Positions 1 through 3,000 of a DNA stretch of 25,186 bases are shown here, piece by piece; the first letter of the stretch is position 1, and each line of letters opens with the position of its first letter. The position numbers are program-made. The stretch is from a virus (taxonomy: Duplodnaviria > Heunggongvirae > Uroviricota > Caudoviricetes), in IMG/VR virus record IMGVR_UViG_2563366883_000011; one strand, 5' to 3'.

Positions 1-3000
1 TTACAGTCCGATGATGTCGTCCGCTCTGCCACTACCTCCGGACACCTCCGGCAGCGTCGGGTCCGGCATACCACCCGCCGCTTCACGAGCAGACTTTTGT
101 CGATGGCATTCGGTACAGAGCGTCCAGAGATTCGTCTCCTCATTACCACCACCGAACTGAAGTGCAATTCGGTGATCAAGTTCACTGTCACAGAGGTCAA
201 CCACACGACCACAGAGACAGCACTGCCCGGCGTCCCTGAGCCAGATATGACGCTTGAGGGAAACACGTGCACTGCCACTGACACGACGCTGTTCCCCCTT
301 CAGAATATTCACCCGTCGGGTATTCAGTGTTTTGATTCTGCTCTGGAGTGTACGAAGCTCAGCCATGTAAAATCCCCGTCATATGACAATCAGTAAAGGA
401 AATAAATATGTCATCGAAAAACCGGACCCGCAGAACCACAACCCGCAATATCCGTTTCCCCAATCACATAATTGAACAAATCAACATAGCCCTTGAGCAT
501 AAAGGGTCCGGTAACTTTTCAGCGTGGGTTATTGAAGCCTGCAGGAGAAGGCTGGCAACAGATGCAACGCATCTGCGCCCGGCCAGCATGAAAAATAACG
601 AGAAATGAACGTTCGGTTTCTTCCACCATCGCACCGGACAGGCGACTATGAGGGGACAACGCCGCGCTCCGTTAACGCGGTAAACCCCGGTGTGCATCGT
701 TTTTGATTATCCCCGCACACTCGCGCAGAGGAGTCTCCCTGTCGGGCTGCGGTCTCTGTTAATGCAGGAATACGGCGACGATACGGCGCATGGCTATGTC
801 AGGCTGAAATGCCTTTATCAAATCCGGGTAACGCAATCTGCCCCTGCTGCTCCAGCCTGTCCAGCCTTGCCAGCAACTGAGGCTTCTTCACCCTGCCCCA
901 GCGATTGAGCAAACGACCTGACATACTGGCAACATCTTTCTCTTTCATGTACTCCAGCATTACAGCGTTGCGTTCAGCTTCATAACTTTCACTGAACTTA
1001 CGGAGTTCAGCGGACATCCAGTTAAAGGCATTAATATAGGCTTCTTTAACGGCATCAGCTTTTGCCCCGTTAAATCCCATAACCAGCATAACGAAGCCGC
1101 TAAAGTCCATGCGGTAGTAAATCTGCTTCTTGTCGAAAATCCCTAACTCATTGATTTTTTCGGCAACGCAAAAATGCGCTCTCCGGAAATCTTCAGAGCA
1201 ATGGCAATTTTTCAGCGCCCTCAATACGTCCGCATGACGCTTACCAAACGCCTTAGCGATCTGAAAAGAGTCTGTTATTGGTTCGCCATCTGCCGCTGTT
1301 ACCAGTTGGCGAAAATCAATACCGTCAACAATCGTCGGATAGTTCATCGCGTTTTACCTTTCAGAAAATTGAGCCTGTCTCACAGAAAAGCCGCCCCGAG
1401 ATGGTCGCCACCATATACGGCAGTTCTCAGGCTCAACTTTCTGAAAGGCTCGGGGATGTGATATGCGCGTGAGATGCGCGGTGAAATTCAGATATGAAAA
1501 AGCCAGCGATTAAGCTGGCTCTGTTAATTCAGGCACTGAGTGCGGATATAGTCCTGTGCCCCTTCCAGCTGCTTCTGCATCAGCATCAACCGCTCTCTGA
1601 GGGTGAAATAATCCCGTTCAGCGGTGTCTGCCAGTCGGGGGCCGGTTGCATTATCCACGCCGGAGGTGCCGGTGGCTTCACGCACGGTACCGTGGCAGGT
1701 GGCGTTGATCCGCAGGCGCTTACGACCAGCGGCAACATCAGCACGCAGAGTTTCATTTTCAGCTCTCGCATCAGCTAATTCCCTCGAGTATTTTGCATCG
1801 AGCGCAGCAACATCGCGCTGGCGCACCTGCATATCAGTAATGGTTGCGTTTGCCAGCTCCAGCTCTCTGGCTTTTTTATCTCGCTGCGCTTTGTAGGTGA
1901 TGGCGTTATCGCGGTAATGATTCAGCCCCAGACTAAGCGCACCACAGGCCACCAGCAGGACAATAATCACCACACACAGAACACGGTTCATATCCCCCTC
2001 ACCCCAGCATCCCCGACGAAGACAACATCATCCAGCCCAGGGAAAGAAAAATAGCAACCAGCATTAGTGAAAATGAAATGCCGACGATTACACAGAGGAT
2101 CTTCGCCAGCGTTATGACGCTTGTCTGACATGCTTAATCCTCTTCACGATTTCAACGCAATGACCAGTTTTGCTAGTCCATACAGCATCGGAGACACAGC
2201 AATACCGACCGCCACCCACTTAATAGCAAAAGCCAGCGCTCTGCTGATGTCATCAGTTACAGGCGCTTTCAGTTCAAGGCCGTTTTTCATAGTCAACCTC
2301 AACAGAATTCGTTTATACTTTTCCATGTTCTCCCTTGCCTTATCCAAGGTCAGAAACACAAAACCCCGCTTGCTGCCAACAAACGGGGTTTTTACTTTTA
2401 TTCACTTAGGTTTTGCCAGTTCGCAGGATTTCGTGTTATCCGCCCGCGTTGGCCAACGTCATTTTTCAGCAAAATATTCTTCTTATCTGTCGATTCCCCA
2501 GCACGCCAGCGCGCTCTCCTGATCACGCCGGGATACCTGACCGTAACAGTTATTTGAGCGGATACGGCAGTCCCTGCCACCGTCCTTAATCCACCAGCGA
2601 ATCGCCTCGCATGCTCCCCTGCGATCACCAGCATTAATTCGTCTGTAAAACGTCGACGGGAAACACTTACCGGGACCAATGTTGTACGGACAGAATGACG
2701 CGATCCCCGCTTTCTGGGGTTCGGTCAGCGGCACTCTGATGTTTTTCTCCACCCACGCCAGCGCTTTATCACGCTCAATGGCGTTAACCTGGTCGCATTT
2801 TTCCTTCGACAACTTCATGCCCGGAACGACAGGTTTGCCATCCACCACCGTGGCACCCCGGCAGATGGTCCATATACCAGAACCATCACGGTATGCTGTG
2901 GTGTGGTTACCTTCTTTTTCATCCAGAAACTGGTCGAGAATGTCAGGCGCAGATGCGCCTGCAGTAATCAGCGCCAGAATGGCAGCCGACAGGCCGTATC

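What the first reader, a model, noticed from the sequence alone, without database searches (positions are those of the whole stretch)
1348..1523. rha leader contains a 21-bp inverted repeat that would sequester its ribosome-binding site, just after the Rz terminator
Arms at 1357-1377 and 1428-1448 match at 20 of 21 positions. In the minus-strand transcript the downstream arm includes the SD-like GAAAGG before the rha start codon, so a 21-bp stem would occlude translation initiation. A terminator-like hairpin directly after Rz isolates rha from late transcription. Together these suggest rha is separately and tightly controlled.
Basis: seen in the sequence. Interest (0 to 1): 0.4.

Follow-up and report, generated by a model that had tools for sequence, protein, structure and literature searches.

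The report
Structured rha leader hides ribosome site
The inverted repeat is real: it is the longest helix of a conserved, probably pseudoknotted RNA leader of about 135 nt that sits ahead of rha-like genes in many lambdoid phages, buries the ribosome-binding site, and so probably keeps a harmful gene untranslated inside the late transcript.

Summary
Observation confirmed. Arms 1357-1377 and 1428-1448 pair at 20 of 21 positions, and the odd one is G-U on the minus-strand RNA. About 5e-5 such repeats are expected by chance. The 3' arm holds the GAAAGG Shine-Dalgarno, 9 nt before the rha ATG at 1347. Predicted P(unpaired) for the SD is 0.001.

The stem is not a lone hairpin. It is helix "gamma" of a leader at 1345-1480(-) with four more helices: P0, P2, P3, and a pseudoknot helix "alpha" (1449-1455 with 1394-1400).

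The family occurs in at least 150 phage records, including phi80, HK639, epsilon34, Sf101 and Stx phages, with P22 as a diverged member. It occurs in 584 of 5426 complete E. coli genomes. It precedes interchangeable genes: Rha, KilA-N, ANT, T5orf172, HNH.

Covariation supports the helices: 28 of 41 pairs change on both sides, against 12.6±1.8 in shuffles.

No Rfam 15 family matches. The only literature trace is an 89-nt P22 RNA, "P22F", of unknown function.

The claim that the Rz terminator isolates rha from late transcription is not supported. No promoter lies between them, and rha sits inside the Q-dependent late operon.

Best reading: a translational lock on rha within late mRNA. What opens it is unknown.

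The parts
1524..1991 (-). Rz spanin gene, the upstream neighbour. Rz1 is embedded at 1586-1771.
   Evidence: ORF list. Pfam Phage_lysis, E = 1.2e-50.
1497..1520 (-). Intrinsic-terminator-like hairpin AGCCAGC-UUAAUC-GCUGGCU followed by U5, directly after the Rz stop codon.
   Evidence: RNA fold, consensus scan, coordinates. Hairpins at the same position are annotated as terminators in phi80, HK639 and epsilon34.
1345..1480 (-). The whole structured leader, matched end to end by covariance model R1 and ending with the rha AUG.
   Evidence: cmsearch 141.6 bits, E = 1e-34, model positions 1-135. No Rfam family matches.
1465..1479 (-). P0 hairpin GCGC-AUCUCAC-GCGC.
   Evidence: Coordinates. The C-G pair becomes U-A in Providencia-type leaders; columns 3/16 show CG:60 and UA:5.
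1449..1455 (-). alpha 5' strand CCCCGAG. It abuts the 5' arm of the long stem and pairs with 1394-1400, giving a pseudoknot topology with P2.
   Evidence: The two strands co-vary across types: CGAGAG/CUCUCG, CCAAGAG/CUCUUGG, CCUAGAG/CUCUGGG, GAAAG/CUUUC, CCACCGA/UCGGUGG, CACAGAA/UUCUGUG. Cognate duplex energy is -10.5 against -7.5 kcal/mol for non-cognate; permutation p about 5e-5.
Its 5' end is the anti-SD.
1418..1427 (-). P2 5' strand AGAACUGCCG.
   Evidence: Pairs with 1384-1393. Compensated variants: AGAAAUGCCG/CGGCAUUUCU, AGGAACGCCG/CGGCGUUCCU, GGCAAACCG/CGGCUUUGCU, AGAAAUAUC/GAUAUUUCU, AGGAUACCAG/CUGGUUUCCU.
1401..1414 (-). P3 hairpin AUGGU-GGCG-ACCAU.
   Evidence: U-A swaps with A-U (28 against 25 sequences) and G-C becomes C-G (6 sequences). 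P3 is absent in the short types E, F and J.
1394..1400 (-). alpha 3' strand CUCGGGG, lying between P3 and the P2 3' strand.
   Evidence: As for the alpha 5' strand.
1384..1393 (-). P2 3' strand CGGCUUUUCU. The U-run is a helix strand, not a terminator tail.
   Evidence: The U-run changes to GUUCCU, UUUGCU or UAUCUCU, with compensating changes on the 5' strand.
1378..1383 (-). Conserved 6-7 nt bulge GUGAGA (GUGNGA in most types) between P2 and gamma.
   Evidence: Alignments.
1357..1377 (-). gamma 3' arm CAGGCUCAAUUUUCUGAAAGG. Its last six bases, 1362-1357 (GAAAGG), are the Shine-Dalgarno sequence.
799..1347 (-). rha, 182 aa, ATG at 1347-1345. It has a perfect IHF-consensus 13-mer at 1144-1156.
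   Evidence: ORF. Pfam Phage_pRha 6.6e-23 and ORF11CD3 1e-24. IHF motif.

Best explanation
The repeat is the long closing helix (gamma) of a conserved cis-acting RNA leader at window 1480-1345 on the minus strand.

How the leader is made. It is transcribed as part of the Q-dependent late operon, after read-through of the Rz terminator.

How it folds. It forms P0, then a domain in which P2 and P3 are nested inside gamma. A 7-nt stretch just 5' of gamma pairs with the stretch between P3 and P2 (helix alpha), which gives a pseudoknot topology.

What it does. Gamma pairs an anti-SD, CCUUUC, with the rha Shine-Dalgarno. At equilibrium the 30S subunit therefore cannot load, and Rha, which is reported to harm phage growth, stays untranslated although its mRNA is abundant late in infection. 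The upstream terminator adds a second lock against polymerase that is not Q-modified, for example in a lysogen.

Shown: the sequence anatomy; conservation of the leader ahead of unrelated cargo genes; covariation in all five helices; predicted occlusion of the SD.

Inferred: that occlusion really limits translation.

Unknown: what opens the lock. The alpha/P2/P3 domain is too conserved to be a mere spacer, so I take it to be either a sensor or binding site for a trans factor, or a device that controls folding kinetics. RNase III cleavage of the stem, which is 21 bp in this window, is a further non-exclusive possibility.
For: Anatomy and energetics:
- Searches give the anatomy. SD P(unpaired) is 0.001, and opening the 3' arm costs 26.7 kcal/mol.

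Conservation independent of cargo:
- blastn finds the leader at 80-98% identity in 150 phage records while the downstream ORF changes.
- Downstream ORFs fall into at least 15 clusters, carrying Phage_pRha, KilA-N, ANT, T5orf172/MUG113 or HNH_3 domains, or none.
- The ATG sits at a fixed distance from the leader.
- 584 of 5426 complete E. coli genomes carry it, with up to 4 copies each.
- Second copies precede other genes in phi80, Lyz12581Vzw and uncultured phages.

Covariation:
- On the model-based alignment of 66 distinct leaders, 86.3% of cells pair.
- 28 of 41 pairs show double changes, against 12.6±1.8 in shuffles (0 of 500 reach it) and 5-9 in slid controls.
- Cognate against non-cognate duplex energies: gamma -23.2 vs -17.1, P2 -10.0 vs -4.7, P3 -2.6 vs -0.1 (helix strands picked by hand, so biased towards the cognates); alpha -10.5 vs -7.5 over whole unselected regions, permutation p about 5e-5.
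- The P22 rha leader has different arm sequences, yet the model finds it at 57 bits, E = 4e-12.

Expression:
- An 89-nt sense-strand RNA, P22F, covers the P22 homologue and ends 6 nt before the rha ATG. It accumulates during infection (PMC13397905).

Operon context:
-.

Biology of Rha:
- rha of P22 is a late-operon gene whose product blocks phage growth in IHF-deficient hosts (PMC4936722, citing Mozola 1985 and Henthorn & Friedman 1995).
Against: - There are no expression data for this leader.
- In many relatives the outer, SD-containing base pairs are only marginally stable. Median P(unpaired) is 0.10 and the maximum 0.56. In P22 the SD lies just 3' of the helix rather than inside it. The strength of the lock therefore varies.
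- The alignment used for pair counts was fitted to the model. RNAalifold run de novo recovers P0, the gamma core and P2, but not the outer gamma pairs or P3.
- G-U against A.C asymmetry does not identify the strand: 86.3% paired on the sense strand against 85.9% on the antisense. Orientation rests on context and on P22F.
- Whether alpha forms together with gamma or instead of it cannot be decided from sequence.
- The sequences fall into only about 11 types and are related to one another, so the statistics overstate independence.
Confidence: 0.72

Rival explanations
1. rha is its own transcription unit. The Rz terminator ends late transcription, a promoter in 1380-1500 starts rha mRNA, and the hairpin is a simple stand-alone translational repressor.
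For: A terminator-like hairpin is present at this position in all relatives. The SD is in the stem.
Against: - No promoter-like site is found on the minus strand in 600-2600.
- The terminator abuts P0 in HK639-type leaders.
- Packaging genes follow rha on the same strand and must be reached by the same Q-modified polymerase.
- P22 rha is described as a late-operon gene.
- The stem is embedded in a larger covarying fold.
Confidence: 0.08
2. The long stem is mainly an RNase III processing site, like the lambda N leader or the T7 intercistronic sites. Cleavage would separate lysis and packaging mRNAs, and would either activate rha by freeing the SD or inactivate it by cutting at the SD. This is compatible with the best explanation as the opening or closing step.
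For: The window has an uninterrupted 21-bp helix, about two turns. A discrete 89-nt leader fragment accumulates in P22, with its 5' end inside the 5' arm. Phage precedents are known (own knowledge).
Against: - Most relatives have two mismatches in the stem.
- The two ends of P22F do not form a 2-nt staggered RNase III pair across the helix.
- Cleavage does not explain why alpha, P2 and P3 covary.
Confidence: 0.25
3. The leader is a riboswitch-like or protein-binding sensor. The alpha/P2/P3 pseudoknot would be an aptamer or binding site, and gamma the expression platform. Occupancy would decide whether the outer gamma pairs, and so the SD, open.
For: The pseudoknot helix and internal helices covary, with near-invariant loops and bulge (GGCG, GUGNGA). 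The element is independent of the downstream protein, which argues against autoregulation and for a common trans signal. alpha abuts gamma with a 0-nt linker.
Against: No ligand or protein is known. There is no Rfam match. P3 is dispensable in types E, F and J. The cargo genes are not metabolic, so no obvious ligand suggests itself.
Confidence: 0.2
4. The processed leader acts in trans as a small RNA, using its anti-SD arm on other leader-bearing mRNAs, by analogy with P1 C4 or Gifsy-1 IsrK.
For: A stable small RNA is seen in P22. Genomes carry up to 4 copies, and some phages carry two. C4 and isrK elements are present elsewhere in this window.
Against: The complementary partner lies in cis only 50 nt away, so intramolecular pairing should win. 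The Rfam C4 and isrK models do not match the leader.
Confidence: 0.08
5. The element works at the DNA level: a palindromic operator or cruciform, or simply a conserved boundary sequence that promotes exchange of cargo genes, with no RNA function.
For: It flanks interchangeable gene cassettes. Each arm contains a small palindrome, TTTCNGAAA. One variant, L058, loses the 3' arm at a recombination junction.
Against: Complementarity, not sequence, is what is conserved. The P22, L040b and Lyz12581Vzw second-copy types have different arms that still pair. Short helices P2, P3 and alpha covary. G-U pairs are common in the stem. The arms lie 50 bp apart.
Confidence: 0.04
6. The 5' half is a transcription attenuator. 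A hairpin ending in CGGCUUUUCUGUG would terminate before rha unless an antiterminator forms.
For: Folded alone, the 5' half gives a long hairpin ending in a U-rich run. L058 ends right after this point.
Against: The U-run is replaced by GUUCCU, UUUGCU, UAUCUCU or UUUCCU, with compensating changes in the P2 5' strand, so it is a helix strand. The alternative pairing CCUGAGA/UCUCGGG is not kept in types F and H. Late transcription is antiterminated in any case.
Confidence: 0.03

Closest known systems
P22F small RNA of phage P22 (PMC13397905, 2026)
   Same: It covers the P22 homologue of this leader: sense strand, between gene 15 (Rz) and rha, with its 3' end 6 nt before the rha ATG. Covariance model R1 matches that locus at 57 bits.
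   Different: It was reported only as an abundant 89-nt read cluster with 'no known function'. No structure, family or regulatory role was proposed. The P22 arms differ in sequence, and the P22 SD lies just outside the helix.
MS2 maturation-gene 5' leader (translational control by delayed RNA folding; own knowledge: Poot et al. 1997, van Meerten et al. 2001)
   Same: An upstream complementary sequence pairs over a long distance with the SD. It encloses a structured domain of about 50-100 nt, and the equilibrium state is translationally off.
   Different: MS2 is an RNA-phage genome, and a kinetic trap has been demonstrated there. Here nothing is known about folding kinetics, and the enclosed domain appears pseudoknotted to the 5' flank.
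Lambda N-leader RNase III site and T7 RNase III processing sites (own knowledge; Wilson et al. 2002 is cited in PMC13397905)
   Same: A long, two-turn stem immediately upstream of a phage start codon. Processing changes translation.
   Different: RNase III cleavage is untested here. Most family members have mismatched stems. There is no nut site and no N-like partner.
Lambda cIII mRNA alternative structures (own knowledge: Altuvia et al. 1989)
   Same: The structure of a phage mRNA decides whether the SD and AUG are accessible.
   Different: cIII switches between two nested folds that overlap the start codon. Here no alternative fold is supported by covariation: the candidate beta pairing is not conserved.
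Pseudoknot riboswitches with SD sequestration (preQ1-II, SAM-II classes; Rfam)
   Same: A pseudoknotted conserved domain coupled to SD occlusion.
   Different: No Rfam model matches. No ligand is known. The cargo genes are phage DNA-binding or nuclease proteins, not metabolic genes.
P1 C4 / Gifsy-1 IsrK leader-derived RNAs controlling antirepressor-type genes (Rfam RF01695, RF01394)
   Same: A prophage RNA encoded just upstream of an antirepressor-like gene carries sequence complementary to its translation-initiation region. Both families are present elsewhere in this window.
   Different: The Rfam models do not match the rha leader. The pairing here is intramolecular and only 50 nt apart.

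Membership tests
Intrinsic (Rho-independent) terminator (hairpin 1497-1520) | G+C-rich stem, short loop, and a U-run immediately 3' on the transcribed strand | tested here: met
   A 7-9 bp stem, a 6-nt loop and U5 on the minus strand. Elements at the same position are annotated as terminators in three phage records.
Intrinsic (Rho-independent) terminator (hairpin 1497-1520) | Actually stops RNA polymerase | not testable with these tools
   This needs in vitro transcription or Term-seq. Q-modified polymerase is expected to read through (established knowledge).
SD-sequestering translational operator hairpin | The Shine-Dalgarno sequence is base-paired in a stable helix at equilibrium | tested here: met
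   GAAAGG at 1362-1357 pairs with 1443-1448. P(unpaired) is 0.001, and opening costs 26.7 kcal/mol.
SD-sequestering translational operator hairpin | The pairing is kept in homologues through compensatory change | tested here: met
   16 of 21 gamma pairs show double changes. The outer helix varies as CUUUCAG/CUAAAAG, CUACAG/CUAUAG and CACAUAG/CUAUGUG, and P22 has a different 18-bp helix. The lock is weaker in many relatives.
SD-sequestering translational operator hairpin | Disrupting the stem raises translation | not testable with these tools
   Reporter fusions are required.
Any Rfam 15 family (riboswitches, leaders, sRNAs; C4 RF01695 and isrK RF01394 in particular) | A match to the family covariance model | tested here: not met
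   No hit at gathering threshold. With E up to 10 on 1250-1600 there is only miRNA and serC noise far below cut-off. Five divergent members give no hit at E up to 0.1.
Riboswitch (generic) | A conserved structured aptamer with covariation, joined to an expression platform | tested here: inconclusive
   The alpha/P2/P3 domain covaries and is joined to an SD helix, but P3 is absent in some types.
Riboswitch (generic) | Specific ligand binding that changes the fold | not testable with these tools
   No candidate ligand. In-line probing is needed.
RNase III substrate (lambda N leader / T7 type) | About 20 bp or more of near-continuous dsRNA | tested here: met
   The window has 21 continuous pairs. 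Most relatives are interrupted by two mismatches.
RNase III substrate (lambda N leader / T7 type) | Staggered cleavage by RNase III | not testable with these tools
   The ends of P22F do not look like a staggered pair. This is weak evidence only.
Transcription attenuator | A terminator hairpin with an obligatory U-tract, plus a competing antiterminator | tested here: not met
   The U-run covaries as the P2 3' strand and is lost in several types.
Leader-peptide-coupled control | A conserved small ORF in the leader | tested here: not met
   Start codon, frame and stop position of the leader ORFs differ among types.

The most novel reading that the evidence does not exclude
The leader would be a new class of pseudoknotted RNA sensor, either a riboswitch or the binding site of a host factor. 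It would gate translation of a whole guild of interchangeable phage 'antirepressor-like' genes (Rha, KilA-N, ANT, T5orf172, HNH) in response to host physiological state. That could be the missing link behind the old observation that Rha is toxic only in IHF-deficient hosts. It is present in more than 10% of complete E. coli genomes and in classic phages (P22, phi80, HK620, Stx phages), yet it is unannotated.
Probability: 0.18. Interest if true: 0.85.

Novelty: new member of a known kind. Interest (0 to 1): 0.6.

Why it matters
Rha, KilA-N and ANT-type genes are among the commonest unexplained accessory genes of temperate phages, including Shiga-toxin phages, and Rha is known to harm phage growth when misregulated. 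A shared structured leader means these genes are controlled after transcription by one common device, independent of which protein follows.

The result gives four practical things:
- a concrete, mutable element with which to test the 30-40-year-old Rha/IHF phenotype;
- a candidate new RNA family for Rfam, with a covariance model and about 11 sequence types in hand;
- corrected start codons: the phi80 and P22 records start rha at a GTG inside the leader;
- an identity for the orphan P22F small RNA.

If the pseudoknot domain senses a signal, it would be a phage-borne RNA switch found in hundreds of E. coli genomes.

Tried and rejected
- Rfam at gathering and at permissive thresholds found nothing, in the window and in five divergent members.
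- The genome-contig scan with a 14-base pattern was a mistake. No taxonomic survey came of it. L130 (Cedecea), the one hit that looked possibly genuine, gave no match to the model.
- IHF site in the leader: none. The only perfect consensus lies inside the rha coding region.
- Leader peptide or translational coupling: the small ORFs are not conserved in start, frame or stop.
- Attenuator or terminator in the 5' half: rejected, because the U-run covaries as a helix strand.
- Alternative 'beta' pairing CCUGAGA/UCUCGGG competing with alpha: not kept in types F and P22.
- Strand assignment from G-U against A.C counts: uninformative, 86.3% against 85.9%. The conserved C.A mismatches would be G-U on the other strand.
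- RNAalifold on the MAFFT and model alignments recovered only P0, the gamma core, P2 and (on A1) P3. The outer gamma pairs were missed because 20-nt and 21-nt arms are misaligned. I relied on per-type inspection and cognate against non-cognate energies instead.
- A column-based count for alpha was not possible, because the helix length and register differ among types. I used a register-free duplex and permutation test.
- Henthorn & Friedman 1995 (PMC177009) is not held. Its content is cited only through PMC4936722.
- Sequence-string and keyword literature searches found no description of the element.
- K-turn reading of the GUGAGA bulge: rejected by inspection, since the opposite strand has no partner nucleotides.
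Full report
**1. The observation**

The window's minus strand carries a lambdoid late operon:
- Q antiterminator, 8545-8138
- two STnc100-type late-leader elements
- an esterase gene
- holin, 3999-3784
- lysozyme, 3016-2483
- Rz/Rz1, 1991-1524
- a 182-aa Rha protein (Phage_pRha + ORF11CD3), 1347-799
- an HNH endonuclease, 366-1

The arms are 1357-1377 and 1428-1448, 21 nt each, 50 nt apart, complementary at 20 of 21 positions. The odd position is a G-U pair on the minus-strand RNA. It is the best inverted repeat with arms at most 150 nt apart in the window. About 5e-5 such repeats are expected by chance.

The minus-strand RNA 1530-1330 folds to -76.1 kcal/mol, with z = -5.95 and no shuffle folding as well. 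The stem is in the MFE structure.

The 3' arm ends in GAAAGG (1362-1357), 9 nt before the ATG. The predicted probability that this SD is unpaired is 0.001. Forcing the 3' arm open costs 26.7 kcal/mol.

A terminator-like hairpin with a U5 tail (1520-1497) directly follows the Rz stop codon.

**2. What it belongs to**

blastn of the leader against 50,697 phage records found it in 150 of them at roughly 80-98% identity. The conserved block runs from the 3' half of the terminator to the start codon (window 1504-1336).

Hosts span Escherichia and Shigella (Stx phages, phi80, HK639, Sf101, HK620), Salmonella (epsilon34, SE16), Klebsiella, Enterobacter, Citrobacter, Pantoea, Providencia and one Actinobacillus phage.

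The gene after the leader is not constant. Among 84 leaders, the ORFs that begin at the conserved ATG fall into at least 15 unrelated clusters:
- Phage_pRha, in two architectures
- KilA-N, in three architectures
- ANT
- T5orf172/MUG113
- HNH_3
- a membrane protein
- several with no Pfam domain

The leader is therefore a portable unit placed in front of interchangeable cargo, usually between the lysis and packaging genes.

Some phages carry two copies, each in front of its own gene:
- phi80: the second copy lies upstream of PHI80_66.
- Stx2 phage Lyz12581Vzw: the second copy lies upstream of an antirepressor gene between R and Rz.
- Salmonella phage 29485 and several IMG/VR contigs also have two.

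megablast finds the leader in 584 of 5426 complete E. coli genomes, with up to four copies per genome. RefSeq annotates nothing there except the start of the downstream CDS.

**3. Structure**

Alignments of about 75 distinct cores from IMG/VR, plus the phage-record types, show about 11 sequence types. Together they define five helices on the rha-sense RNA.

| Helix | Window coordinates | Sequence in the window |
|---|---|---|
| P0 | 1479-1465 | GCGC-AUCUCAC-GCGC |
| P2 | 1427-1418 with 1393-1384 | AGAACUGCCG / CGGCUUUUCU |
| P3 | 1414-1401 | AUGGU-GGCG-ACCAU |
| alpha | 1455-1449 with 1400-1394 | CCCCGAG / CUCGGGG |

P2 and P3 are nested inside gamma. The alpha 5' strand lies outside P2 and the alpha 3' strand lies inside it, so alpha and P2 have a pseudoknot topology.

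Each helix changes sequence between types while keeping its pairing.

- alpha: CGAGAG/CUCUCG (phi80), CCAAGAG/CUCUUGG (Providencia), CCUAGAG/CUCUGGG (Salmonella 29485), GAAAG/CUUUC (mEp237 and the phi80 second copy), CCACCGA/UCGGUGG (P22), CACAGAA/UUCUGUG (Lyz12581Vzw second copy).
- P2: AGAAAUGCCG/CGGCAUUUCU, AGGAACGCCG/CGGCGUUCCU, GGCAAACCG/CGGCUUUGCU, AGAAAUAUC/GAUAUUUCU, AGGAUACCAG/CUGGUUUCCU.
- P3: AGCU-GGCA-AGCU, UCGC-UUUUG-GCGA.
- outer gamma: CUACAG/CUAUAG, CACAUAG/CUAUGUG.
- whole gamma in P22: CUUUGGAAUGGGCCUUUG/CAAAGGUUCAUUUCAAAG, 18 pairs of which three are G-U.

**4. Quantification**

I built a covariance model from 17 leaders, using the nested helices. On the sense strand it scores typical members at 100-149 bits and the divergent types, P22 included, at 55-64 bits.

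On the resulting alignment of 66 distinct sequences:
- 86.3% of pair cells are standard pairs, against 81.2% in shuffles.
- 28 of 41 pairs show changes on both sides, against 12.6±1.8 in shuffles. None of 500 shuffles reaches 28.
- Sliding the 3' partner by 1-3 columns leaves only 5-9 such pairs.

That alignment is fitted to the model, so I added a test that does not depend on alignment. For ten type representatives I compared duplex energies of cognate strand pairs with those of all non-cognate combinations.

| Helix | Cognate (kcal/mol) | Non-cognate (kcal/mol) |
|---|---|---|
| gamma | -23.2 | -17.1 |
| P2 | -10.0 | -4.7 |
| P3 | -2.6 | -0.1 |
| alpha | -10.5 | -7.5 |

The gamma, P2 and P3 rows use helix strands that I picked by hand so that they pair in the cognate, which biases those three comparisons towards the cognates. 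For alpha I used whole unselected regions; only 5e-5 of permutations reach the observed mean.

RNAalifold run de novo recovers P0, the gamma core and P2 (plus P3 on A1). It misses the outer gamma pairs because 20-nt and 21-nt arms are misaligned.

The types are few and related, so these figures show consistent compensation. They are not independent events.

**5. How typical the window copy is**

It is not typical. Most family members carry two conserved non-pairs in gamma: C.A at alignment columns 43/134, and C.A or C.U at columns 50/127. In the window both are Watson-Crick pairs. This gives the strongest gamma of all types, -34.3 kcal/mol against about -20 to -25.

Across the 66 leaders the median predicted P(unpaired) of the SD is 0.10, with values up to 0.56. 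In P22 the SD lies 3 nt beyond the helix.

The tightened version is shared by at least 31 phage records at 95-99% identity and by about a hundred E. coli genomes.

**6. Transcription context**

- No sigma-70-like promoter is found on the minus strand anywhere in 600-2600.
- In HK639-type phages the terminator's T-run runs straight into P0.
- rha lies between the lysis genes and the packaging genes on one strand, both in this window and in the closest phage, where terminase and portal genes follow rha directly.
- The literature calls P22 rha a late-operon gene.

Q-modified polymerase reads through intrinsic terminators (established knowledge). The terminator can therefore only exclude unmodified polymerase, which is useful in a lysogen. 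The leader must do its work on the late polycistronic RNA.

**7. Independent expression evidence**

A 2026 small-RNA survey of P22-infected Salmonella lists "P22F". It is an abundant 89-nt plus-strand RNA whose 3' end is 6 nt from the rha start codon, validated by RT-PCR, with "no known function" (PMC13397905).

Its sequence maps to the P22 leader that model R1 recognises. It starts inside the gamma 5' arm. The leader region therefore exists in cells as a stable sense-strand RNA species.

**8. Mechanism**

*Shown.* The SD lies in a covarying helix of a conserved fold that travels with unrelated cargo genes.

*Inferred.* The fold blocks 30S loading, so that Rha, which blocks phage growth in IHF-deficient hosts, is not made from abundant late mRNA. 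The terminator gives a second, transcriptional lock in the prophage.

*Open.* What releases the lock. There are three non-exclusive candidates.
- (a) The alpha/P2/P3 domain binds a factor or ligand. alpha abuts gamma with no linker, and alpha (7 bp) plus P2 (10 bp) together are shorter than gamma (21 bp). Forming alpha may therefore strain or peel the outermost SD-containing pairs of gamma. This is geometric speculation, not a result.
- (b) Delayed folding, as in the MS2 maturation-gene leader, which would allow one round of initiation per new transcript.
- (c) RNase III cleavage of the two-turn stem.

Rejected alternatives are a transcription attenuator, leader-peptide coupling, a DNA operator or cruciform, and membership of the C4 or IsrK families. 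Sections 3 and 6 and searches give the reasons.

**9. Comparison with what is known, and novelty**

SD-sequestering leaders are a well-known kind of control, so the mechanism class is not new.

This particular family matches nothing in Rfam 15, in the window or in five divergent members. I found no description of it in 8 million full texts beyond the P22F read cluster.

I file it as a new member of a known kind. It is widespread, supported by covariation and probably pseudoknotted, and its trigger is unknown.

**10. Limits**

- All functional statements are inferences from sequence.
- The strand is assigned from context and from P22F, not from G-U asymmetry, which is uninformative here.
- The pseudoknot helix is supported by co-variation between types, but it is untested physically.
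- My one genome-wide scan was wasted on too short a pattern. The taxonomic range therefore comes only from the phage, IMG/VR and E. coli collections.

Noticed in passing
window 1144-1156 (-), inside rha; L259 (P22) 1186-1198: A perfect IHF consensus (WATCAANNNNTTR) lies exactly 191 nt downstream of the rha ATG in this window (AATCAATGAGTTA) and at the same offset in P22 rha (AATCAATAACTTA). This is notable because rha is the gene whose product is toxic in IHF-deficient hosts. It may simply reflect conserved codons. No exact match was found in the phi80, Sf101 or HK639 loci.
   Followed up: partly
window 6836-7584 (STnc100 at 6892-7101 and 7379-7584, both -; AsxR at 6836-6888, +): There are two full-length copies of the STnc100 late-leader RNA about 490 nt apart downstream of Q, plus an AsxR anti-sRNA on the opposite strand. 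The late-promoter leader region appears duplicated.
   Followed up: no
window 15015-15203 (-): A C4 antisense RNA (82 bits) and isrK (62 bits) lie side by side. This is a P1/Gifsy-type antirepressor-control module in the same prophage, separate from the rha leader.
   Followed up: no
L001 (phi80) 1617; L259 (P22) 926; L005 (HK639) 1293: GenBank and RefSeq start rha at an upstream GTG inside the leader (the conserved CUGUG bulge or P3). This adds 12-23 codons. The conserved SD-ATG, and in-frame stop codons in other leader types, argue that the downstream ATG is the true start.
   Followed up: partly
L261 1041-1155 (phi80); L260 4685-4819 (Lyz12581Vzw); L009 8514-8625; L040 11112-11243; L075 341-460; L249 1175-1294: These are second, divergent copies of the leader in the same phage, each ending at the ATG of a different gene (N15 gp59-like, antirepressor, unknown). 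The leader behaves as a reusable cassette head.
   Followed up: partly
L058 3786-3916: In this IMG/VR phage the leader is intact up to CUGUGCGAA and then diverges. The 3' arm and SD are missing, so it looks like a recombination breakpoint inside the element.
   Followed up: no
window 1458-1479 (+): A tandem 11-nt direct repeat GTGATATGCGC/GTGAGATGCGC overlaps the P0 hairpin. P0's two GCGC strands are the repeat units.
   Followed up: no
window 17746-17834: An inverted repeat with 25-nt arms, 84% complementary, 39 nt apart. It is the only other long inverted repeat in the window and lies in the early or regulatory region. Not examined.
   Followed up: no
window 2360-2392 (-): A strong 15-bp hairpin (AAAACCCCG...CGGGGTTTT) followed by a T-rich tail, between the lysozyme gene and a 71-aa ORF (2359-2144) that has no Pfam match. 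It looks like a terminator inside the lysis cassette.
   Followed up: no
window 1357-1377 and 1428-1448: Each arm contains its own small palindrome (TTTCAGAAA and TTTCTGAAA). In RNA this allows alternative local pairings. Its significance is unknown.
   Followed up: no
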